Shown here: in pieces, positions 4,958-45,740 of the stretch
Position numbering within the stretch: the first letter of the stretch is position 1
Layout: the number at the start of each line of letters is the position of its first letter
From: a virus
Length of the DNA stretch: 64,000 nt
Virus record (IMG/VR): IMGVR_UViG_3300005096_000137
Location: 32,001-96,000 of that record
Reading direction: 5' to 3' (one strand)
Notes under the pieces: model-generated
What the model was told of the DNA's origin: nothing
Seen by the model: the letters and a program-made list of their open reading frames with translations, nothing else
The model's database searches: none
Position numbers and translations under genes: made by a program

Positions 4958-5914
4958 TTGGTACAATATAGTATGGACGTATCTACTGTACCAATTGAAA
5001 TGATTGACCCACCTAATCCGATTCTCCGGAGATTCTCTGAGAATTCGGTTCAGTTCCTAGAACTTGTTGACCAAATCAAGTCCTGTGGTGGGGCATTACA
5101 AGCCCCACCCGCACGCCCTGTTGAGAGGGGTCGGGTTCAGCTATGTGATGGTTATCGCCGCTATCGGGCAACCATTAAAGCAGGTCTCTCCCACATGAAC
5201 CTGGTTATTCAGGAGATGGATGATGTCGAGTACCTGGCAAACCAGATGCTCTGCAACTCTATGCACGAAGAAACGGACTGGATCGATTACGCAAAACACC
5301 TTGATCGCCTTCGGCATCTTAATAACACCGAGATGACGTTGCGAGACCTGGCAGGTTACTGTAGTCGGTCAACCCAGTGGGTACGCCAGGTTTTGAACCT
5401 CAACCACCTCCATCCCCACTTTGCTAAGATGGTGAAGAATAACGAAGTCCCAATTGGTAACGCCAAGATGTTGGCTCGATTACCATTGAGTGAGCAGGTA
5501 CACTTCATTGATGATGCCCAAACCATGGGGTCCATGGAATTTGTACGGGTGGTTCGCCGGGCTATCAATGATTACCGGGAAGGTATCAAGCAGGGCAGGC
5601 TTCTGAAACTGGGGAAGGACAATTTCCGCCCAGTTATGCGTGACCTCCGGGTTGTTGAAGAGGAATTGCGATCCCCTTCCCATCTCCCTGCACTCATTGT
5701 CGCAGCGGGTATTACTAACGTGGCGGAGGCCGCCCAGCTTGCTCTTCAGTGGGCGTTCCGGGTTGATCCTAAGACTCTCGCAGAGCGTCAGGAGAGTGTC
5801 CATGCCAACGAAGTCCAGCACCTCCAAGATACTGAATATCGCAAGCACGCACGAAAACTTATACAATTTGCTGAAGAATCCCAGACACGCTCTTGTCCAA
5901 AGGGCGAGCTTTGA
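4958..5914 (+). CDS. ParB/Srx-like protein with HTH
   Basis: LCDGYRRYRA (GxRR) motif; HTH MTLRDLAGYCSRSTQWVRQVL. Confidence 0.75.
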   Translation: MVQYSMDVSTVPIEMIDPPNPILRRFSENSVQFLELVDQIKSCGGALQAPPARPVERGRVQLCDGYRRYRATIKAGLSHMNLVIQEMDDVEYLANQMLCNSMHEETDWIDYAKHLDRLRHLNNTEMTLRDLAGYCSRSTQWVRQVLNLNHLHPHFAKMVKNNEVPIGNAKMLARLPLSEQVHFIDDAQTMGSMEFVRVVRRAINDYREGIKQGRLLKLGKDNFRPVMRDLRVVEEELRSPSHLPALIVAAGITNVAEAAQLALQWAFRVDPKTLAERQESVHANEVQHLQDTEYRKHARKLIQFAEESQTRSCPKGEL

Positions 5915-21018: not shown

Positions 21019-21230
21019 GTGAGTGGGTTATGGACGTGACAGGCCTGACCGCCTGGGAGGTAAGATTCCTCGCCCACTTGCATGGAGGACCCTACGAGGT
21101 GGGGACGTACATGGGTAAAAGTCCATTATGGAAGAACTACCCGCGTGCGTCGAGGTTCGTAACCTTACTCCTCCGCTTTAGTTTATCAACTGAACCGGCA
21201 CCGGATGGTGTTCCTTCGTGACTCACCCAC
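21019..21230 (+). ncRNA. candidate structured ncRNA (about 210 nt, rod-like)
   Basis: 16-bp terminal helix with 1 mismatch; nested ggagga/tcctcc and gacgtacatgggta/tacccgcgtgcgtc helices. Confidence 0.5.
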
Positions 21231-21331
21231 GATAGGTTGGTAAGCGTTAATGGGCGGTCCCCGCGACAAGTCTATACGACAAACCGTCTGGGGTACGACT
21301 CCCCGCCCTTTGATACAAATGAGGTGGATGA

Positions 21332-24881: not shown

Positions 24882-24956
24882 GCCGTAGTGGTGTAAATGG
24901 CACAGCATACCAGGGCGTCCACCCTGGAGGCATGGGTTCGATTCCTGGGTGCGGCA
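24882..24956 (+). ncRNA. tRNA-like RNA with 8-nt anticodon loop
   Basis: gccgta/tgcggc acceptor, ccagg-gcgtccac-cctgg, ttcgatt T-loop. Confidence 0.55.
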
Positions 24957-24967
24957 CTTTGAGTTTT

Positions 24968-25072
24968 GCAGCGGTGGTGTAAAAGTGATCTAGGGAGGCC
25001 TCTCTAGGTACCATAGGTGAACATTACTGGGTTAGATACCCGGAGATGGGGGTTCGACTCCCCCACGCGGCG
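24968..25072 (+). ncRNA. tRNA-like RNA with hairpin inserted in D loop (copy 1)
   Basis: cloverleaf with ctaggga-ggcc-tctctag insert; T arm gggggttcgactccccc. Confidence 0.6.
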
Positions 25073-25083
25073 CTTCGAGTTTT

Positions 25084-40507: not shown

Positions 40508-41379
40508 GCTATGATTATGAAGTTGCTGGGCATGTCTACGTCGTCCCACTCCATGACATCTACGTGGACCCTGATTTCAATTGCCGGGGTGCATTTGCTC
40601 CTCATGAAGTTCACGGACTTGGTCAGAGTATCTCGGAAGAAGGTCAACGGGCTCCCATAGTTGTCCAACCTCTGGACGACGTCCCTGGACCAGAGCAGCC
40701 CCTGGGTGACTGGACCTTTCGTTTGATCGCCGGACATCGCCGCTACATGGCAATCGATAAATGGTCTACGGGTACTACTATCAACTGTGTGGTGGAGAGG
40801 GGACTGACCCGTGAACAGGCTTGCACTCTTAACTTCTCAGAGAATCTCCAGAGAAAGGACCTGAACATCTTGGAGGAGGCTCGCGCACTCCACCGCACCT
40901 GGCCAATCCAGTCATTGGGCATGATCTCAAAACTCATTGGGAAACCTAAGAAGTGGATCCACGCTCGCCGGATGCTCCTCCAGCTCCCTGATTACGTCCA
41001 GACACGGGCAGCCAGTAACGGTATTTCCCAGTACGATATCCTAATGCTTGCCAAACTCCCGCCCGACAGGGTGGAGGCAGCCTACGAGAAGCTGACTTCG
41101 TCAAAAGGAAAGACGGGGCGACGACCAGTGGTAGCCGGCAAACAGAAGTGGAGAAACCGACCTCGGGGAATCAATGAAATCTCAAAGATGGTCGCATTCC
41201 TGCTCCGCCACCAGCGATTCTCAGAACTTTCCGAAGCCGAAATTACTCTGGTCACGTCAACCCTGGTCTGGGTCACTAAAGGCATTGACGCACAGGAGTT
41301 ACTAGAGAACAGGTTTGGCTTCCCCGAGGGCAGCGTGGCTATCGATTCCACTGACGAAATTGAGGGAATGAAAGATTAG
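40495..41379 (+). CDS. ParB/RepB/Spo0J-like protein
   Basis: PIVVQ, LIAGHRRYMA, ENLQRKDLNILEEA. Confidence 0.85.
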   Translation: MLQLSYDYEVAGHVYVVPLHDIYVDPDFNCRGAFAPHEVHGLGQSISEEGQRAPIVVQPLDDVPGPEQPLGDWTFRLIAGHRRYMAIDKWSTGTTINCVVERGLTREQACTLNFSENLQRKDLNILEEARALHRTWPIQSLGMISKLIGKPKKWIHARRMLLQLPDYVQTRAASNGISQYDILMLAKLPPDRVEAAYEKLTSSKGKTGRRPVVAGKQKWRNRPRGINEISKMVAFLLRHQRFSELSEAEITLVTSTLVWVTKGIDAQELLENRFGFPEGSVAIDSTDEIEGMKD

Positions 41380-41404
41380 CCGCAGGTTTTATTGAAATTG
41401 GTTC

Positions 41405-41432
41405 TTGACTTCCCGGACCCATCGAGTATACT
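41405..41432 (+). promoter_or_regulatory. sigma70-like promoter for the Y-RNA/tRNA-like cluster
   Basis: TTGACT-16 nt-TATACT. Confidence 0.65.
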
Positions 41433-41542
41433 TGGTAATAGAACGTGCCAAAGATTCAAGACTAATTCCAGCCAAAAGAGCTGGTGAACTCTAACTTGAG
41501 GACAGAACGATGTAGTTGGCTGGGTGAAAGCCCAGCACCCTT

Positions 41543-41667
41543 GGAGGGGTAGCTCAGTTGGTAGAGCGCCAGTAGCATAAAAACAGTTGTGACAAACTTG
41601 CTATTAAGCCGAACATAGCTGATTATCTCGGAACTGGATGTCGCGGGTTCGAGACCCGCCCCCTCCG
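41543..41667 (+). ncRNA. tRNA-Y RNA chimera 1 (Ro-binding-like helix replacing the anticodon loop)
   Basis: GGAGGGG/CCCCTCC acceptor, canonical D and T arms, ccagt/actgg stem enclosing a 59-nt insert with ACTTGCT-atta-AGCCGAA...ATTATCT. Confidence 0.8.
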
Positions 41668-41669
41668 CT

Positions 41670-41734
41670 GCCTAAGCCGAAGTCAATGCGTTATCTTTCA
41701 TATGATTACCCGCACCGACATTCACTTGCCAGGC
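41670..41734 (+). ncRNA. minimal Y RNA-like gene 1
   Basis: gcct-AAGCCGAA-gtcaatgcGTTATCT...cgcaccgac-attCACTTGC-caggc. Confidence 0.75.
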
Positions 41735-41759
41735 TATTTTAGATGTAGACCAATACTTT

Positions 41760-41878
41760 ACGGGGGTAGCTCAGTTGTTAGAGCACCAGCTCGGGCCATT
41801 ACGACAAACTGTCCGGACAGTCTTGTATAACGGGTCACAGGGAGCTGGGGGTCGGTGGTTCAATTCCTCCTCCCCGTA
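41760..41878 (+). ncRNA. tRNA-like RNA with about 50-nt hairpin in place of anticodon loop
   Basis: acggggg/tccccgt acceptor, D arm, ccagctc/gagctgg stem, palindromic apex actgtccggacagt. Confidence 0.7.
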
Positions 41879-41883
41879 CTACT

Positions 41884-41949
41884 GCCTAAGCCGAAATCAA
41901 TGCGTTATCTTTCATATGATTACCCGCATTAACATTCACCTGCTATGGC
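41884..41949 (+). ncRNA. minimal Y RNA-like gene 2
   Basis: near-duplicate of 41670-41734. Confidence 0.75.
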
Positions 41950-42039
41950 GTTTTGAGTGTAGACCACGGACTACGAGCATCTTAGGCTGCTTATGGCCCT
42001 GGGGTCTCAGTTGTAGTTCAAGTCTGCCGCACTCACCTT

Positions 42040-42107
42040 GGGCGAAGCCGCAGCTCATGCGTTATCCTTGTAAGATTTGCCGCATACAGCATCGACTTGC
42101 TAAGCCC
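42040..42107 (+). ncRNA. minimal Y RNA-like gene 3 (divergent)
   Basis: gggc-gAAGCCGCA-gctcatgcGTTATC...cgcatacagc-atcGACTTGC-taagccc. Confidence 0.7.
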
Positions 42108-42120
42108 AATAATACAAAGT

Positions 42121-42138
42121 CCCCGCCTTCGGGTGGGG
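42121..42138 (+). terminator. GC hairpin after the RNA cluster (terminator or processing signal)
   Basis: ccccgcc-ttcg-ggtgggg; no clear U-tract. Confidence 0.4.
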
Positions 42139-42200
42139 CGTTCGCACAAAGTCCCTGTCCGCCCTTATGGCGGGCAGGGTAGTGATTCAAGGAGAGTAAT

Positions 42201-42572
42201 GTGTCTGATTACGATGAGTTTGAATCTGAGTTTGAAGCCGAGGAATTCAAGGCAGAAATCAAACAGATGCAAGCAGAGTCGCAAGGGGTGGCTCTAGACC
42301 ACGCAATTTATCGAGAAGCTTCACAGCATGCTGTGTTTGATGAATGGCAGATAGTCTCTTTATTGAACCAAGATGCCTACTTCGTGGATGGTTGTGATCT
42401 GGAAGCTGATCCCAAGACAGGTAAGTGTGTCTGTGTGATTCTCCGAGAGAAGGATGAGGGTACTGGTAAAATGTGTAACCACTATTATACACTGAAGAAT
42501 GCCCTGATCCGCCTCCGTCACATAACGCCCAACTTGTTCCTCGCGAACGTGAAGGGGCAATCGGATGACTGA
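42201..42572 (+). CDS. hypothetical protein (PxLF family)
   Basis: C-terminal YTLKNALIRLRHITPNLF. Confidence 0.6.
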   Translation: MSDYDEFESEFEAEEFKAEIKQMQAESQGVALDHAIYREASQHAVFDEWQIVSLLNQDAYFVDGCDLEADPKTGKCVCVILREKDEGTGKMCNHYYTLKNALIRLRHITPNLFLANVKGQSDD

Positions 42573-42891
42573 CTCCAAGATACCAACCGAGTTGGAATTG
42601 GCTGAAAAGAAGTACCATTATTTAGTGATTCGAGAATCCATTTTGAAAGCCGCGAAATCACACCGGGTTTACTGGCCATTGCAGATTCTCCTACTTCTTA
42701 GGGACCAAGCTTATATTGAAGGTGGCTATGGTGGCAATTCATATGAGATTCCTTCTGGTGTGGTGCGCGTGAATCTGGATGTAAAAACCTTGAATCCTAC
42801 CAGTCCGGCGAAAAGACTCTATTCTTTAGATCGTGTTATGAAACGACTTCGGCAAATTCATCCAAGTCTATTTAACCTGGGGGTTGAATAA
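42565..42891 (+). CDS. hypothetical protein (PxLF family)
   Basis: C-terminal YSLDRVMKRLRQIHPSLF. Confidence 0.6.
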   Translation: MTDSKIPTELELAEKKYHYLVIRESILKAAKSHRVYWPLQILLLLRDQAYIEGGYGGNSYEIPSGVVRVNLDVKTLNPTSPAKRLYSLDRVMKRLRQIHPSLFNLGVE

Positions 42892-42896
42892 CCAGA

Positions 42897-43463
42897 ATGA
42901 ACTTTCAGAATACGACTGGGAATTATGCCATTGCAGCCGGTCTGGCCGCTTCTGCGCATACTAAGCAACGTCGGAAAGACCCTGATAGGACCCCCTACAT
43001 CAATCACCCACTTGAAGTTGCCGTCCTCTTAACATATGATGGGCAAGTGGATGATGTGGATACTCTGATCGCAGCAGTCCTTCATGATGTTGTGGAAGAT
43101 ACAGATATCACGCTAGGTTTTATCTTCACCCTGTTTGGTCCCCGAGTGAGGGACATCGTGGCCGAGGTTACTGACGACAAGTCGCTCCCGAGTGCAACAA
43201 GGAAGCAACTACAAATTGACAACGCCCCTGGTAAGTCAGACGCCGCCAAGATGATTAAGATCGCGGATAAGATAGTCAATATCCAAGACATGAGCACAGA
43301 GTCCCCTGTTGGCTGGTCGACTGACCGGAAGTTCGAGTACATTGATTGGGCGACGAAAGTCGTGGCAGGTTGTGCCGGCGTGAATTCTAATTTGGATGCC
43401 ATATTTCACAGTGCGGCTATCCAAGCCAAAGCCAACTGTACTACTGTTGGGAACCATGAGTAA
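42897..43463 (+). CDS. MESH1/SpoT-type HD-domain hydrolase (small alarmone hydrolase-like)
   Basis: HTKQRRKD...PYINHP, AAVLHDVVEDT, EVTDDK, KIADKIVN. Confidence 0.88.
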   Translation: MNFQNTTGNYAIAAGLAASAHTKQRRKDPDRTPYINHPLEVAVLLTYDGQVDDVDTLIAAVLHDVVEDTDITLGFIFTLFGPRVRDIVAEVTDDKSLPSATRKQLQIDNAPGKSDAAKMIKIADKIVNIQDMSTESPVGWSTDRKFEYIDWATKVVAGCAGVNSNLDAIFHSAAIQAKANCTTVGNHE

Positions 43464-43526
43464 CCTCAATTCTACACGGTAACTCTCCGAGGGTTACTGT
43501 GCAAACTTTATGATTGGAGACAGAGA

Positions 43527-43844
43527 ATGGCAATTACTTTAGACACCACCTATCACGGCGTAGTTCAAGAGGTCCGTAACCTAAGCTACCAATGGGCAGA
43601 CAATTTGGTCGCCCTCTTGATTGTCGAAGCGGCTATGAAGCAAGGGGCTTTTAATCCACAGCAGGTCCGGGTACTTTTAGCAGACGGAGCCACGACTAAT
43701 CCTAATGTCAATCCTCATTTTGGATTACCTCGGGACTTTGAGGTCCGGATAAGTAACAGCCACACAGGGGGTGTCGGGATGTCTCTTGAACAGGCAGTGA
43801 GTTACTTGAAAGAGACCCAGCCCAATTTGTTCCTGGCTGACTAA
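43527..43844 (+). CDS. hypothetical protein (PxLF family)
   Basis: C-terminal MSLEQAVSYLKETQPNLF. Confidence 0.6.
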   Translation: MAITLDTTYHGVVQEVRNLSYQWADNLVALLIVEAAMKQGAFNPQQVRVLLADGATTNPNVNPHFGLPRDFEVRISNSHTGGVGMSLEQAVSYLKETQPNLFLAD

Positions 43845-43851
43845 TACATGT

Positions 43852-43984
43852 AGTCCAAGAGCAACGGAATCAGAACCGAATAATGACTCTAAACTGAATC
43901 GACAAATCTGACCACCCTGGGTGGAGTCCGAGAGCAACGGAATCAGAACCGAATAATGACTCTAAACTGAATCGACAAATCTGA
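43852..43984 (+). repeat. 60-bp direct repeat, two copies (period 73)
   Basis: agtcc(a/g)agagcaacggaatcagaaccgaataatgactctaaactgaatcgacaaatctga at 43852 and 43925. Confidence 0.9.
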
Positions 43985-43990
43985 ATCGAT

Positions 43991-44137
43991 GCGACTGTGG
44001 TGTAATGGTAGCACACATACTAACTAGGTTGTCAATAACTTGCGCAGAAGAAGTACCTTCGGGGAACCACGCTGAGCCGAATGTTAACCGTTATCTCTTG
44101 CACGAGTGTGGACTAGGTTCAATTCCTAGCAGTCGTT
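43991..44137 (+). ncRNA. tRNA-Y RNA chimera 2, immediately upstream of ro60
   Basis: gcgactg/cagtcgt acceptor, D arm, T arm ctaggttcaattcctag; insert ggttgtca..ACTTGC...AGCCGAA-tgttaacc-GTTATCT. Confidence 0.8.
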
Positions 44138-44165
44138 TTAACAATTTCACTGGAGAACTGAAATC

Positions 44166-45740
44166 ATGTCCTACTCAACTGATATTGGTCGAACTGATCA
44201 AGTTACTAACAACCAAGGTGGTCGTGTCTTCCAGATTGACTGCTGGGCACGCCTAGAGCGGTTCCTCATTCTTGGACACGAGGGTGGGAGCTACTACGCC
44301 GAGCAGCAGAAGCTGACTCTTGAGACAGTTGTTTGTATTGATGAGTGTCTGGCTGAAAGTTCGTACCTCATGGTGAAGGCTATCGTGGACATCAGCCAAT
44401 CAGGACGGGCTCCAAAGAATGACCCGGCCATCTTTGCGCTTGCCTACGTAGTGTCAAAGAAGGACGAGTCATCCCAGTATGCGCTCAAGTTTCTGGGGGA
44501 TGTGTGTCGGATTGGGACACATCTTGCTCAGTTCCTAAATCACTGTAAGAACCTTGGCAGAGGTTGGGGTCCATCATTCACGCGGGCAGTTGCTGAGTGG
44601 TACAACCGTGATCCAGAACGGCTTGCCATGCAGGTGACAAAATACGCGAACCGAAAAGGGTGGACACATCGTGACATTCTCCGCAAGGCGCACCCTTCGT
44701 CCAAGGATAAGAAGCTTGACAACATCTTCTGTTACCTGACCCAACATGCGAAGTGGTCACGCCGGAAGAACTCGGGACCTGCTGATGAGTTCCTGTGTGC
44801 GGTGGATGAAGCTAAGGACTCAAAAACGACCGTGGCTCGGCTCGTGGAACTAATTCAGTTGTATGGGCTGGTGCGCGAGCACATGCCAACCAATGCTTTG
44901 AACAATCGAGAAGTCTGGATGGCGCTGCTTCAAAACATGCCACTCACGGCAATGATTCGCAACCTGGGTAAGATGTCCAGCATTCGACTCCTCACACCCC
45001 TGAGCACTGGTTCAAAGCTGGTGCGGTCTGCACTCGAAGACTCTGGAAACCTAAAGAAACAACGGGTTCATCCCTTGTCATTACTGATTGCGCTCAAGCA
45101 ATATGGCGAAGGTCAGGGTCTTCGTGGCTCCCTTACTTGGGACCCTGTCCCACAGATTATGACAGGCTTGGACAATGCCTTCTATGAGGCGTTTGACTTC
45201 GTGGAGCCGACCAATAAGAACCACCTCCTAGGTGTTGATGTCTCAGGCTCTATGGACTGGACCAACTGTGTTGGGGCAGGTGTTCTCAAATGTTCCGAGG
45301 GTGCAGCAGCTATGGCTATGCTGGCAGCTCGGACAGAAGAGAACACGCACGTCTTTGGTTTTGCCGACGATTTCCGTGACCTGGGTATCACTGCTTCAGA
45401 TTCCTTGCAGACTGCATTGAAGAAGACCGAGACTGGGACCTTCGGCGGTACGGATTGTGGACTCCCCATGCACTACGCCGCCAATCATGGGATTGAGGTG
45501 GATGTGTTCTGCGTCTACACGGACAATGAAACGGGTGGTGGCTACTACAGTCGGACCAAGGACCCACACCAGGAACTTGAACGCTACCGGCAGACAATGG
45601 GACGGGACGCTAAACTGGCAGTGTTCGGGATGGCACAGAACGAGTTTAGTGTTGCTGATCCTAAAGACGCTGGGCAAATGGACTTTGTTGGATTTGATGC
45701 GTCGGCTCCAACTTTACTTGCGAACTTCGTTCGTGACTGA
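44166..45740 (+). CDS. rsr: Ro60/TROVE-domain RNA-binding protein with vWA domain
   Basis: NNQGG, RLERFLILGHEGGSYY, RIGTHL, KYANRKGWTHRDILRKAHP, MPLTAMIRNLGKM, DVSGSM (MIDAS), GGTDC, YTDNET, GFD. Confidence 0.95.
   Translation: MSYSTDIGRTDQVTNNQGGRVFQIDCWARLERFLILGHEGGSYYAEQQKLTLETVVCIDECLAESSYLMVKAIVDISQSGRAPKNDPAIFALAYVVSKKDESSQYALKFLGDVCRIGTHLAQFLNHCKNLGRGWGPSFTRAVAEWYNRDPERLAMQVTKYANRKGWTHRDILRKAHPSSKDKKLDNIFCYLTQHAKWSRRKNSGPADEFLCAVDEAKDSKTTVARLVELIQLYGLVREHMPTNALNNREVWMALLQNMPLTAMIRNLGKMSSIRLLTPLSTGSKLVRSALEDSGNLKKQRVHPLSLLIALKQYGEGQGLRGSLTWDPVPQIMTGLDNAFYEAFDFVEPTNKNHLLGVDVSGSMDWTNCVGAGVLKCSEGAAAMAMLAARTEENTHVFGFADDFRDLGITASDSLQTALKKTETGTFGGTDCGLPMHYAANHGIEVDVFCVYTDNETGGGYYSRTKDPHQELERYRQTMGRDAKLAVFGMAQNEFSVADPKDAGQMDFVGFDASAPTLLANFVRD

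What the first reader, a model, noticed from the sequence alone, without database searches (positions are those of the whole stretch)
41670..42107. Three very small (about 65 nt) Y-like RNAs with anticodon-like apical loops
Seen: each has a terminal helix, the bulged GCCG helix, an upper helix ending tgcg/cgca, and a small apical hairpin. The apex is atc-tttCATat-gat in copies 1 and 2 and atc-ctTGTaa-gat in copy 3; the latter is a canonical C-U-NNN-A-A 7-nt loop. Copies 1 and 2 each follow a tRNA-like gene within 2-5 nt and are followed by tttt..tgtagacca, which suggests duplicated tRNA+Y units released by tRNA processing. Inference (weak, 3-bp stems): the Y RNAs display anticodon mimics while the neighbouring tRNA bodies lack anticodons, as if split decoys for anticodon nucleases.
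Basis: partly seen in the sequence, partly recalled or inferred. Interest (0 to 1): 0.7.

Follow-up and report, generated by a model that had tools for sequence, protein, structure and literature searches.

The report
Three mini Y RNAs beside phage Ro60
These are three genuine small "Y RNAs", the docking RNAs of the ring-shaped RNA-surveillance protein Ro60 that this phage encodes 2 kb downstream; such phage pairs are already known, but the anticodon-like tip of one copy proves to be a recurring trait of the RNA family, probably a leftover of its tRNA ancestry.

Summary
Observation confirmed. Three hairpin RNAs of 65-68 nt lie at 41670-41734, 41884-41949 and 42040-42107. A covariance model built only from bacterial Ro60 (Rsr) loci finds exactly these three in the 64-kb window (E 4e-9 to 1e-5). 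They sit 2.1-2.5 kb upstream of a phage Ro60/Rsr gene on the same strand.

The family gave 296 hits in 161 phage and bacterial Rsr loci, all on the rsr strand, with strong covariation.

The apex is the conserved UUAUC (the YUAY motif of YrlA) plus a short hairpin, which corresponds to YrlA's "V" stem-loop.

Copy 3's AUC-CUUGUAA-GAU belongs to a recurring class. After UUAYC, 31-50% of members have a stem of 3 bp or more closing a 7-nt loop with U at position 2 and a purine at position 6. Shuffles give 2-6%. In YrlA-type relatives this hairpin lies 6-7 nt before the T arm, where an anticodon arm would be. Copies 1 and 2 have a non-canonical 8-nt loop.

Release by tRNA processing is supported: 19 of 68 relatives abut tRNA or tRNA-like genes. 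The anticodon-nuclease decoy idea has no support.

This scan has already met similar phage mini-Y RNAs in at least 7 other genomes. This is a known kind with a new family-level detail.

The parts
41405..41432 (+). sigma-70-like promoter (TTGACT, 16-nt spacer, TATACT) in front of the ncRNA array
   Evidence: 10 of 12 consensus matches. This is a consensus match only, and the region's promoter count is not above shuffles.
41543..41667 (+). tRNA-like RNA 1, with a 59-nt insert in place of the anticodon loop. The insert carries a back-to-front Y module (ACUUGCU-AUU-AAGCCGAA, then AUUAUCU).
   Evidence: Rfam tRNA 52.6 bits. ARAGORN calls it only in intron mode. Sequence read.
41670..41734 (+). mini Y RNA copy 1 (GCCGAAG ... 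GCGUUAUC ... CGCA ... CACUUGCC), followed by UAUUUU
   Evidence: R3 51.9 bits, E 4.4e-9. RF01656 22.1 bits, below threshold. Fold -15.9 kcal/mol, z -2.5.
41760..41878 (+). tRNA-like RNA 2, with a 52-nt hairpin that lacks the Ro60 motif in place of the anticodon loop
   Evidence: Rfam tRNA 47.4 bits; fold
41884..41949 (+). mini Y RNA copy 2, a recent duplicate of copy 1 with a weakened handle (GCCGAAAU, CACCUGC), followed by GUUUU
   Evidence: R3 35.5 bits, E 1.4e-5, with four non-standard pairs; alignment A1
42040..42107 (+). mini Y RNA copy 3. Apex: AUC (42064-42066), loop CUUGUAA (42067-42073), GAU (42074-42076).
   Evidence: R3 40.5 bits, E 1.2e-6. Its loop class recurs in relatives.
42121..42183 (+). 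two strong G+C-rich hairpins closing the array, each preceded by CAAAGUCCC and neither followed by a U run
   Evidence: Fold -39.8 kcal/mol, z -4.6; motif count. Their role was not tested.
43991..44137 (+). third tRNA-like RNA with an inserted Y module (GCCGAAUG ... CCGUUAUCU), ending 28 nt before rsr
   Evidence: ARAGORN intron mode, motif scan. The fold is not better than shuffles.
44166..45740 (+). Ro60/Rsr gene (524 aa), the presumed protein partner
   Evidence: Pfam TROVE 1.6e-35 and vWA_Ro60 2.5e-51. Homologues of 60-64% identity lie in syntenic phage contigs.

Best explanation
The three elements are hairpin-type Y RNAs (mini-Y, of the YrlB / Yrn2 / phiLo-Yrl kind) that partner the phage's own Ro60/Rsr protein.

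Anatomy. Each RNA is the Y 'handle'. It has a terminal helix, the bulged-C helix carrying the Ro60-binding motif GNCGAAG opposite ACUUGC, and an upper GCG/CGC helix. The upper helix is capped by the conserved UUAUC and a short hairpin. This cap corresponds to the YUAY motif and 'V' stem-loop of the tRNA-like Y RNA YrlA. A mini-Y is therefore a YrlA-type RNA without the T, acceptor and D arms.

Biogenesis (inferred). The three RNAs are transcribed with two tRNA-like RNAs from one promoter. The enzymes that trim tRNA ends (RNase P at tRNA 5' ends, 3' trimming after the discriminator base) cut them free.

Action (inferred from characterised Y RNAs). They dock on Rsr. They gate its RNA-binding surface or tether it to a host exoribonuclease such as PNPase, with the apex as the partner-specific part.

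The anticodon-like tip. The 7-nt C-U-N-N-U-A-A loop of copy 3 is a family trait. It is most simply read as a retained, still-constrained anticodon-arm remnant from the tRNA ancestry of Y RNAs. Copies 1 and 2 carry a degenerate 8-nt version.
For: Partner gene. A TROVE + vWA_Ro60 gene lies 2.1-2.5 kb downstream on the same strand. The ParB - ncRNA gap - Ro60 - PolA order is conserved in relatives.

Family. Model R1 gave 68 hits in phage Rsr loci and 45 in bacterial Rsr loci, all on the rsr strand. Model R2 gave 149 and 147, again all on that strand. A bacterial-only model recovers the three copies and nothing else in the window.

Structure. 92.8% of cells are paired. 249 cells have a change on both sides, against 72.8 in shuffles. 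The covariation score is 0.654, against 0.15 or less with slid partners.

Motifs. GCCGAAG fits the published GNCGAAN0-1G motif, and UUAUC fits the published YUAY motif that begins the V loop. The spacing matches the sbRNA consensus without indels. RF01656 exceeds its threshold on relatives L018, L120, L170, L163 and L057.

Link to YrlA. The same handle carries a T arm, a closed acceptor hairpin and a D arm in hits of 120-145 nt.

Processing. 19 of 68 hits abut tRNA or tRNA-like genes. In M. smegmatis YrlA and YrlB come from one precursor and YrlA is cut by RNase P. In phage hits a U run follows the stem in 59%, against 11% background.

Loop class. The 7-nt U2/R6 loop occurs in 33/107, 12/24, 26/83 and 17/43 members (phage small, phage large, bacterial small, bacterial large), against 2-6% in shuffles. 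It sits on many different stems: AUC/GAU, AUCA/UGAU, CCA/UGG, CCU/AGG, UCG/CGA. In YrlA-type relatives it is followed by NN+AGGUC and then the T arm.

Precedent. Thermus phage phiLo Ro60 binds two phage hairpin Yrl RNAs and forms complexes with host PNPase.
Against: There is no RNA evidence for transcription, ends or Rsr binding. No RNA sequencing run holds the locus.

The window copies score below the Rfam threshold of RF01656 (22.1 against 38 bits), and there is no YrlA hit on them.

Copy 2 has a weakened Ro60 motif and four broken pairs. Copy 3 has GCCGCAG in place of GNCGAAG.

The alignments used for pair counts were fitted to the model, which favours the structure.

Family members are related by descent, so the shuffle controls overstate the independence of the loop class.

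The published 3D model of YrlA assigns the Y stem itself, not the V hairpin, to the anticodon-stem position. The remnant reading is therefore my inference from linear order and loop signature.
Confidence: 0.8

Rival explanations
1. Anticodon-arm decoy. The Rsr-bound mini-Ys display anticodon-loop mimics that bind, titrate or sense anticodon nucleases or other anticodon-loop-reading enzymes. This would protect the phage's and the host's tRNAs, and would complement the neighbouring anticodon-less tRNA bodies.
For: Copy 3 and 14-25% of family members have an exact C-U-NNN-A-A 7-nt loop; shuffles give 0.3 or fewer such loops per set of 24-107 members.

The three middle positions vary (UGU, UCU, GUU, UUU, CUU, GCU, GCC, CAU) while the flanks stay.

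The phage also carries 12 tRNA genes in the window and an RtcB RNA ligase elsewhere in the genome. In Salmonella, rsr, Y RNAs and rtcBA form one RNA-repair operon that responds to damaged tRNAs (title and abstract listed).
Against: The stem has only 3-4 Watson-Crick pairs and no stability on its own.

Copies 1 and 2 do not have a 7-nt loop in the CAU register.

Half or more of the family has other apexes, 9-39 nt long.

The same hairpin occurs inside YrlA-type RNAs that have their own tRNA body, so it does not complement a missing anticodon.

There is no co-occurrence with insert-bearing tRNA-likes (4/11 against 14/28).

Position 36 is nearly always U and A is rare at 34-36, which suggests one conserved motif rather than a set of anticodons.
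Confidence: 0.08
2. The apical hairpin is only an evolutionary leftover with no present function, and copies 1 and 2 (or all three) are decaying duplicates of a YrlA-type gene. Any Rsr partnering would then be done by the tRNA-Y chimeras.
For: Copy 2 has four broken pairs and a mutated motif. Copies 1 and 2 are recent duplicates including their flanks. Apex length and sequence vary widely in the family. Chen et al. call the V stem-loop 'less conserved'.
Against: The handle is kept by compensatory changes across hundreds of mini-Y genes in phages and bacteria. The loop flanks C-U and A-A persist on changed stems. Mini-Ys commonly occur two or three to a locus with different apexes. All of this argues for selection.
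Confidence: 0.08
3. They are not Y RNAs but intrinsic terminators or processing hairpins that merely punctuate a tRNA-like operon.
For: Each follows or precedes a tRNA-like gene. Copies 1 and 2 are followed by a U run. In phage relatives a U run follows 59% of hits.
Against: The terminator scan calls none of them. The stems are bulged and moderate in G+C. Terminators do not keep sequence motifs (GNCGAAG, GGGUUAUC, ACUUGCC) across phyla, and they do not track one protein gene on one strand in 296 of 296 cases.
Confidence: 0.03

Closest known systems
Hairpin-type bacterial Y RNAs: S. Typhimurium YrlB, M. smegmatis YrlB, D. radiodurans Yrn2 (Chen et al. 2014, PMC4201824)
   Same: They are encoded next to rsr and carry the GNCGAAN0-1G motif in the 5' strand. 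[quoted passage not shown] They accompany a tRNA-like Y RNA, and in M. smegmatis they are processed from a common precursor.
   Different: Here both strands of the Ro60-binding helix are conserved, as in animal Y RNAs, and UUAUC follows the upper helix. There are three copies. They abut tRNA-like genes and are phage-encoded. I had no sequence of YrlB or Yrn2 to hand, so there was no direct alignment.
YrlA (Rfam RF02553), the tRNA-like Y RNA bound by Rsr
   Same: They share the handle, the YUAY motif at the start of the V region, and a V stem-loop before the T arm. Relatives of 120-145 nt with this handle carry T, acceptor-like and D arms.
   Different: The window copies have no T, acceptor or D arm and give no RF02553 hit. 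Even the YrlA-type relatives in 15 phage loci stay below RF02553's threshold.
Thermus phage phiLo Ro60 with Yrl1 and Yrl2 (NAR 2025, PMC12135203)
   Same: A phage-encoded Ro60 has hairpin Y-like RNAs with a CGAA motif just upstream. Binding was shown by gel shift, and complexes form with host PNPase.
   Different: Nothing was tested experimentally here. The phiLo RNAs were not compared in sequence. No tRNA-linked array or anticodon-like apex is described there.
Animal Y RNAs and nematode stem-bulge RNAs (Rfam RF00019, RF01656)
   Same: They share the bulged-C helix, the upper helix and UUAUC at the same spacing (alignments). RF01656 passes its threshold on phage and bacterial relatives. UUAUC is a conserved motif of sbRNAs and vertebrate Y RNAs (PMC4726728).
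   Different: The apex here is 19-20 nt, against tens of nucleotides there. The genes here are prokaryotic and co-transcribed with tRNA-like genes, not RNA polymerase III genes. The window copies are below threshold (22.1 bits). The review cited calls bacterial Y RNAs not homologous to the vertebrate ones.
tRNA anticodon stem-loop
   Same: Copy 3 has a 7-nt loop with C32, U33, A37 and A38. The phage's own tRNA-Asn loop CUGUUAA is the commonest loop in the family.
   Different: There are only 3 standard pairs (plus two U-U) instead of 5, and no tRNA body. Copies 1 and 2 have 8-nt loops.

Membership tests
Y RNA (Ro60/Rsr partner RNA) | 5' and 3' ends pair into a long stem | tested here: met
   Folds. 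Family covariation: 92.8% of cells paired and 14 of 16 pairs with changes on both sides.
Y RNA (Ro60/Rsr partner RNA) | Ro60-binding motif GNCGAAN0-1G (animal GGUCCGA) in a bulged helix | tested here: met
   Copy 1 has GCCGAAG opposite CACUUGCC with a bulged C. Copy 3 has GCCGCAG, a variant also seen in relatives. Copy 2 has GCCGAAAU opposite CACCUGC, which is weakened.
Y RNA (Ro60/Rsr partner RNA) | Encoded within a few kb of rsr on the same strand | tested here: met
   2.1-2.5 kb upstream of 44166-45740, same strand. 296 of 296 family hits lie on the rsr strand.
Y RNA (Ro60/Rsr partner RNA) | Bound by Ro60/Rsr, and accumulation depends on it | not testable with these tools
   Needs immunoprecipitation, gel shift or Northern blot. 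No RNA run holds the locus.
YrlA (RF02553) | tRNA-like domain with T arm, closed acceptor-like stem and D arm | tested here: not met
   At 65-68 nt there is no room for it. No RF02553 hit covers the copies (the only weak hit, 18.2 bits, lies at 41517-41567).
YrlA (RF02553) | Conserved YUAY at the start of the V region | tested here: met
   UUAUC directly follows the upper helix in all three copies. UUAUC or UUACC occurs in 90 of 101 relatives. Motif as described.
Nematode sbRNA / animal Y RNA (RF01656) | Score at or above the family's gathering threshold (38 bits) | tested here: not met
   Copy 1 scores 22.1 bits; copies 2 and 3 are not listed. Relatives pass: 41.3, 43.5, 40.5, 40.4, 43.0 and 41.1 bits.
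tRNA anticodon stem-loop mimic | 7-nt loop with U33 and purine 37 | tested here: inconclusive
   Copy 3 meets it (CUUGUAA). Copies 1 and 2 have 8 nt in the AUC/GAU register, and only an alternative UUAU/AUGA register gives CUUUCAU. In the family, 31-50% meet it, against 2-6% in shuffles.
tRNA anticodon stem-loop mimic | 5-bp stem | tested here: not met
   There are 3 standard pairs (AUC/GAU) flanked by U-U. The isolated apex folds at 0 to -0.1 kcal/mol.
Intrinsic terminator | G+C-rich uninterrupted stem followed directly by a U run | tested here: not met
   The terminator scan of 41300-44200 calls none of the three. The stems are bulged, and copy 3 has no U run.

The most novel reading that the evidence does not exclude
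The apical hairpin of these mini-Y RNAs, and the 'V' stem-loop of YrlA-type RNAs, would be a conserved anticodon arm. It would be inherited from the tRNA that gave rise to Y RNAs and still be read by an anticodon-loop-binding factor (a nuclease, a modification enzyme or a synthetase). Rsr-bound mini-Ys would then act as anticodon-arm decoys or sensors within a phage tRNA-protection kit that also includes tRNA genes and RtcB.
Probability: 0.12. Interest if true: 0.8.

Novelty: new member of a known kind. Interest (0 to 1): 0.5.

Why it matters
Phage Ro60 / Y RNA pairs are known, so the locus itself is another example. Three family-level points came out of checking it.

1. A very large, unannotated family of mini-Y RNAs accompanies Rsr in phages and in many bacterial phyla. 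It keeps both strands of the animal-type Ro60 helix plus UUAUC at the animal spacing. A nematode Y-homologue model detects its members above threshold. This bears on whether bacterial and animal Y RNAs are related, which the review read denies.

2. UUAUC tracks Ro60 in organisms that have no Y-RNA-dependent DNA replication. This suggests that the motif's old role lies in the Ro60 particle.

3. The hairpin after UUAUC often has an anticodon-loop signature. In YrlA-type RNAs it sits where an anticodon arm would lie relative to the variable loop and T arm. This is concrete, testable support for the proposal that Y RNAs arose from tRNA transcripts. It also gives a defined loop to mutate when looking for the still-unknown effectors of bacterial Y RNAs.

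Tried and rejected
- blastn of the array against 50,697 phage records: no match.
- Single-protein search for Rsr loci in viral contigs: none. An alignment query then worked.
- Exact pattern AGCCGMANNNNATGCGTTATC in viral contigs: 10 places, but none has the 3' strand of the handle, so they are chance matches in coding DNA.
- RNA evidence: no RNA holder listed for the locus. Read laying was not used, because DNA contigs cannot show RNA ends.
- Kissing-loop idea: the locus 41400-44200 holds only 5-7-nt complements of the apical loops, all outside the ncRNAs except one 6-mer (TGAAAG at 41525, to the alternative copy-1 register) in the leader hairpin. None is a convincing partner.
- Split-decoy co-occurrence: anticodon-like mini-Ys are not enriched in loci with insert-bearing tRNA-likes (4/11 against 14/28, p=0.5).
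- Coding reading: ORF 41775-42182 (135 aa, TTG start) spans tRNA-like 2 and all later RNAs and has no Pfam match. Rejected.
- Region 41948-42038 between copies 2 and 3 folds moderately (z -2.0) and matches no model. Left unexplained.
The smaller A6 was used instead.
- Two reviews by Sim and Wolin are not held in the library.

Full report
**What is in the window**

The window is part of a 148-kb IMG/VR virus record that CheckV rates complete. Positions 41400-42200 hold no credible gene. The only long ORF there, 41775-42182, has no family match and runs across several RNA genes.

In order, the stretch holds:
- a sigma-70-like promoter at 41405-41432;
- a tRNA-like gene with a 59-nt insert in its anticodon arm (41543-41667);
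- mini-Y copy 1 (41670-41734);
- a second tRNA-like gene with a 52-nt insert (41760-41878);
- mini-Y copy 2 (41884-41949);
- about 90 nt of unassigned, moderately structured RNA;
- mini-Y copy 3 (42040-42107);
- two strong G+C-rich hairpins.

Downstream lie small ORFs of unknown family, an HD_4 hydrolase and a third tRNA-like RNA with a Y module (43991-44137). At 44166-45740 there is a full-length Ro60/Rsr gene with TROVE and vWA_Ro60 domains. ParB lies upstream of the array and a family A DNA polymerase downstream of rsr. Phage contigs whose Rsr is 58-64% identical keep this order.

- the terminal helices;
- the GC-C-GA / UUGC helix with one bulged C;
- the UGCG/CGCA upper helix;
- the apex AUC-UUUCAUAU-GAU in copies 1 and 2, and AUC-CUUGUAA-GAU in copy 3;
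- gaps of 2 and 5 nt after the tRNA-like genes;
- the UUUU ... UGUAGACCA tails of copies 1 and 2.

Copies 1 and 2 are recent duplicates together with their flanks.

The three are far beyond chance. A covariance model built solely from bacterial Rsr-locus sequences finds exactly these three sites in 64 kb, at E 4.4e-9, 1.2e-6 and 1.4e-5, and nothing else at E<=1. Model R1, which was built partly from the three copies, matches nothing else in the 148-kb record.

**They are Y RNAs**

A model seeded with the three copies and one relative hit 68 sites in 87 phage Rsr loci and 45 sites in 80 bacterial Rsr loci. A second-round model hit 149 and 147. Every hit was on the strand of rsr. Most lay within a few hundred nucleotides upstream of rsr or just downstream.

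The family structure is well supported:
- 92.8% of cells form standard pairs.
- 249 cells have changes on both sides, against 72.8 in shuffles.
- The covariation score is 0.654, against at most 0.15 when partners are slid.

The caveat is that this alignment was fitted to the model.

The consensus runs as follows: GGCCGA-AG, five variable positions, GGGUUAUC, an apex of 9-39 nt (median 19), CCC, then CA-NN-AAC-UUGCC. In phages a U run often follows: TTT in 59% of tails, against 11% background.

GCCGAAG fits the GNCGAAN0-1G motif that Chen et al. proposed as the Rsr contact. The independent Rfam model of nematode stem-bulge RNAs, which are accepted Y RNA homologues, aligns to these RNAs without indels through both helices and UUAUC. 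It passes its gathering threshold on six relatives from phages, Chloroflexota and a planctomycete. Copy 1 itself reaches only 22.1 bits.

**What the apex is**

The second-round hits fall into two size classes, about 60-80 nt and about 120-145 nt. The long ones carry, inside the same handle, a T arm, a closed acceptor-like hairpin and a D arm. That is the YrlA architecture, although Rfam's YrlA model does not reach threshold on them.

In those RNAs the upper helix is followed by UUAYC and a short hairpin, then 6-7 nt (typically NN+AGGUC), then the T arm. Chen et al. describe exactly this: a less-conserved 'V' stem-loop upstream of the T stem-loop, with a conserved YUAY that begins the V loop. 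The apical hairpin of the mini-Ys is therefore the V stem-loop of YrlA. A mini-Y is a YrlA-type RNA without its T, acceptor and D arms.

The neighbouring tRNA-like RNA 1 has the same module back to front. Its order is 3' strand, closing loop, 5' strand, then AUUAUCU joining the tRNA body. Another note of this scan covers that element.

**The anticodon-like loop**

The apex is not uniform. Its length ranges from 9 to 39 nt, and most isolated apexes have no predicted stability.

A specific class nevertheless recurs. Directly after UUAYC there is a stem of at least 3 pairs closing a 7-nt loop, with U at loop position 2 and a purine at position 6.

| Set | U2/R6 7-nt loop | Exact C-U-NNN-A-A |
|---|---|---|
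| Phage mini-Ys | 33 of 107 | 15 |
| Phage YrlA-type | 12 of 24 | 6 |
| Bacterial mini-Ys | 26 of 83 | 14 |
| Bacterial YrlA-type | 17 of 43 | 7 |

Shuffling the apex gives 2-6% for the U2/R6 loop and at most 0.3 expected cases per set for the exact form. Among all possible short hairpins at this place, 7-nt loops are about twice as frequent as any other size.

The stems differ (AUC/GAU, AUCA/UGAU, UUAUC/GAUAA, CCA/UGG, CCU/AGG, UCG/CGA, UCGU/ACGA) while the loop flanks stay. The middle triplets vary (GUU is commonest, then UGU, UUU, CUU, UCU, GCU and others), with U nearly fixed at the third position. Copy 3 (CUUGUAA) is a typical member.

Copies 1 and 2 are not. In the AUC/GAU register their loop has 8 nt. 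Compared with relatives such as UUAUC-C-CUCAUAA-U-GAU, they look like a version shortened by one nucleotide. Only an alternative register (UUAU/AUGA around CUUUCAU) gives 7 nt.

The sequences are related by descent, so the shuffle figures are not probabilities. Recurrence in four separate sets and on changed stems is the stronger argument.

**How I read it**

In YrlA-type RNAs the hairpin sits in the linear order expected of an anticodon arm: hairpin, two nucleotides, a 5-nt AGGUC-like variable loop, T arm. It also carries the loop signature of tRNAs. Wang et al., citing Sim and Wolin, propose that YrlA arose from a dimeric tRNA transcript, with the T arm coming from the first tRNA. A retained anticodon arm of that first tRNA would lie exactly here. 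I therefore read the loop as an anticodon-arm remnant that is still under some constraint.

This is inference. The solved YrlA structure places the Y stem, not V, at the anticodon-stem position in three dimensions, and S. Typhimurium YrlA has no such hairpin.

**The decoy idea**

The evidence does not favour a split decoy.
- The hairpin co-exists with a tRNA-like body in one molecule in the YrlA-type RNAs.
- Loci with anticodon-like mini-Ys are not enriched for anticodon-less tRNA bodies (4/11 against 14/28, p=0.5).
- The stem is short.
- I found no complementary partner sequence in the locus.

The idea is not excluded. The phage does carry many tRNAs and an RtcB ligase, and in Salmonella rsr and the Y RNAs belong to an RNA-repair operon induced by damaged tRNAs.

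**Biogenesis and action**

The tight joints to tRNA-like genes are a family habit. 19 of 68 phage mini-Ys abut a tRNA or an insert-bearing tRNA-like gene on the same strand, often with 0-3 nt between them. 55 of 58 insert-bearing tRNA-likes are on the rsr strand. Bacterial loci show the same, for example L128 and L102.

In M. smegmatis YrlA and YrlB come from one precursor, and RNase P cuts YrlA. Release of the mini-Ys by the tRNA end-processing enzymes is therefore the likely route, though it is inferred and not shown.

By analogy with D. radiodurans, Salmonella and Thermus phage phiLo, the RNAs should dock on the phage Rsr. They would either gate it or tether it to a host exoribonuclease such as PNPase, with the apex giving each paralogue its partner specificity. 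None of this could be tested here, and no RNA data set holds the locus.

**Novelty and verdict**

Phage Ro60 with Y RNAs has been known since 2014, and a phage complex has been solved. Hairpin Y RNAs beside a tRNA-like one are also known. This scan has already reported similar phage mini-Ys with animal-type hallmarks in at least seven other genomes.

The three RNAs are therefore new members of a known kind. New here are the family-level size of the mini-Y group, its identity with the YrlA handle plus V hairpin, and the conserved anticodon-loop signature of that hairpin.

Scores:
- Interest: 0.5.
- Y-RNA identity and mechanism as stated: 0.8.
- Anticodon-nuclease decoy: 0.08.

Noticed in passing
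window 41543-41667 and 43991-44137: Two tRNA-shaped RNAs carry a back-to-front Y module (3' strand, closing loop, 5' strand, UUAUCU) in place of the anticodon loop. They amount to circularly permuted YrlA with an open acceptor stem. ARAGORN in intron mode finds 58 insert-bearing tRNA-likes in the 87 phage loci scanned, 55 of them on the rsr strand.
   Followed up: partly
own genome G000:C1:135839-137167 (outside the window): The phage encodes an RtcB RNA ligase (344.7 bits). Together with Rsr, the Y RNAs and at least 12 tRNAs, this resembles the bacterial rsr-yrl-rtcBA RNA-repair set.
   Followed up: no
window 42897-43463: An HD_4 (RelA/SpoT-type HD) hydrolase gene lies between the Y RNA array and rsr (E 1.5e-13). 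The three small ORFs around it have no Pfam match.
   Followed up: no
window 42121-42183: Two very stable G+C-rich hairpins, each preceded by CAAAGUCCC, close the ncRNA array without a U run (z -4.6). The 9-mer occurs only three times in the window.
   Followed up: partly
window 41948-42038: About 90 nt between copies 2 and 3 fold into a closed stem (GAGUGUAGAC / GUCU..CACUC) with z -2.0. They match no Rfam family and none of my models. This may be a degenerate tRNA-like or Y element.
   Followed up: partly
window 21181-21249: Rfam DUF3800-IX RNA motif, 45.6 bits (threshold 36.8), within the phage's tRNA region.
   Followed up: no
window 24882-25073 (+) and 5263-5413 (-): ARAGORN in intron mode calls two more tRNA-like genes with long inserts (117 and 60 nt) far from rsr. 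They may be further chimeras or false calls.
   Followed up: no
L046:1935-2443: In another Rsr phage a mini-Y RNA (1935-2002) lies 15 nt before a phage-encoded tmRNA (2018-2443, 113.5 bits).
   Followed up: no
L088, L057, L086, L065, L068 and others: YrlA-type Y RNAs of Rsr phages (T arm, closed acceptor-like stem, D arm inside the Y handle) are not detected by Rfam RF02553 at its gathering threshold in any of 15 loci. Current annotation therefore misses them.
   Followed up: partly
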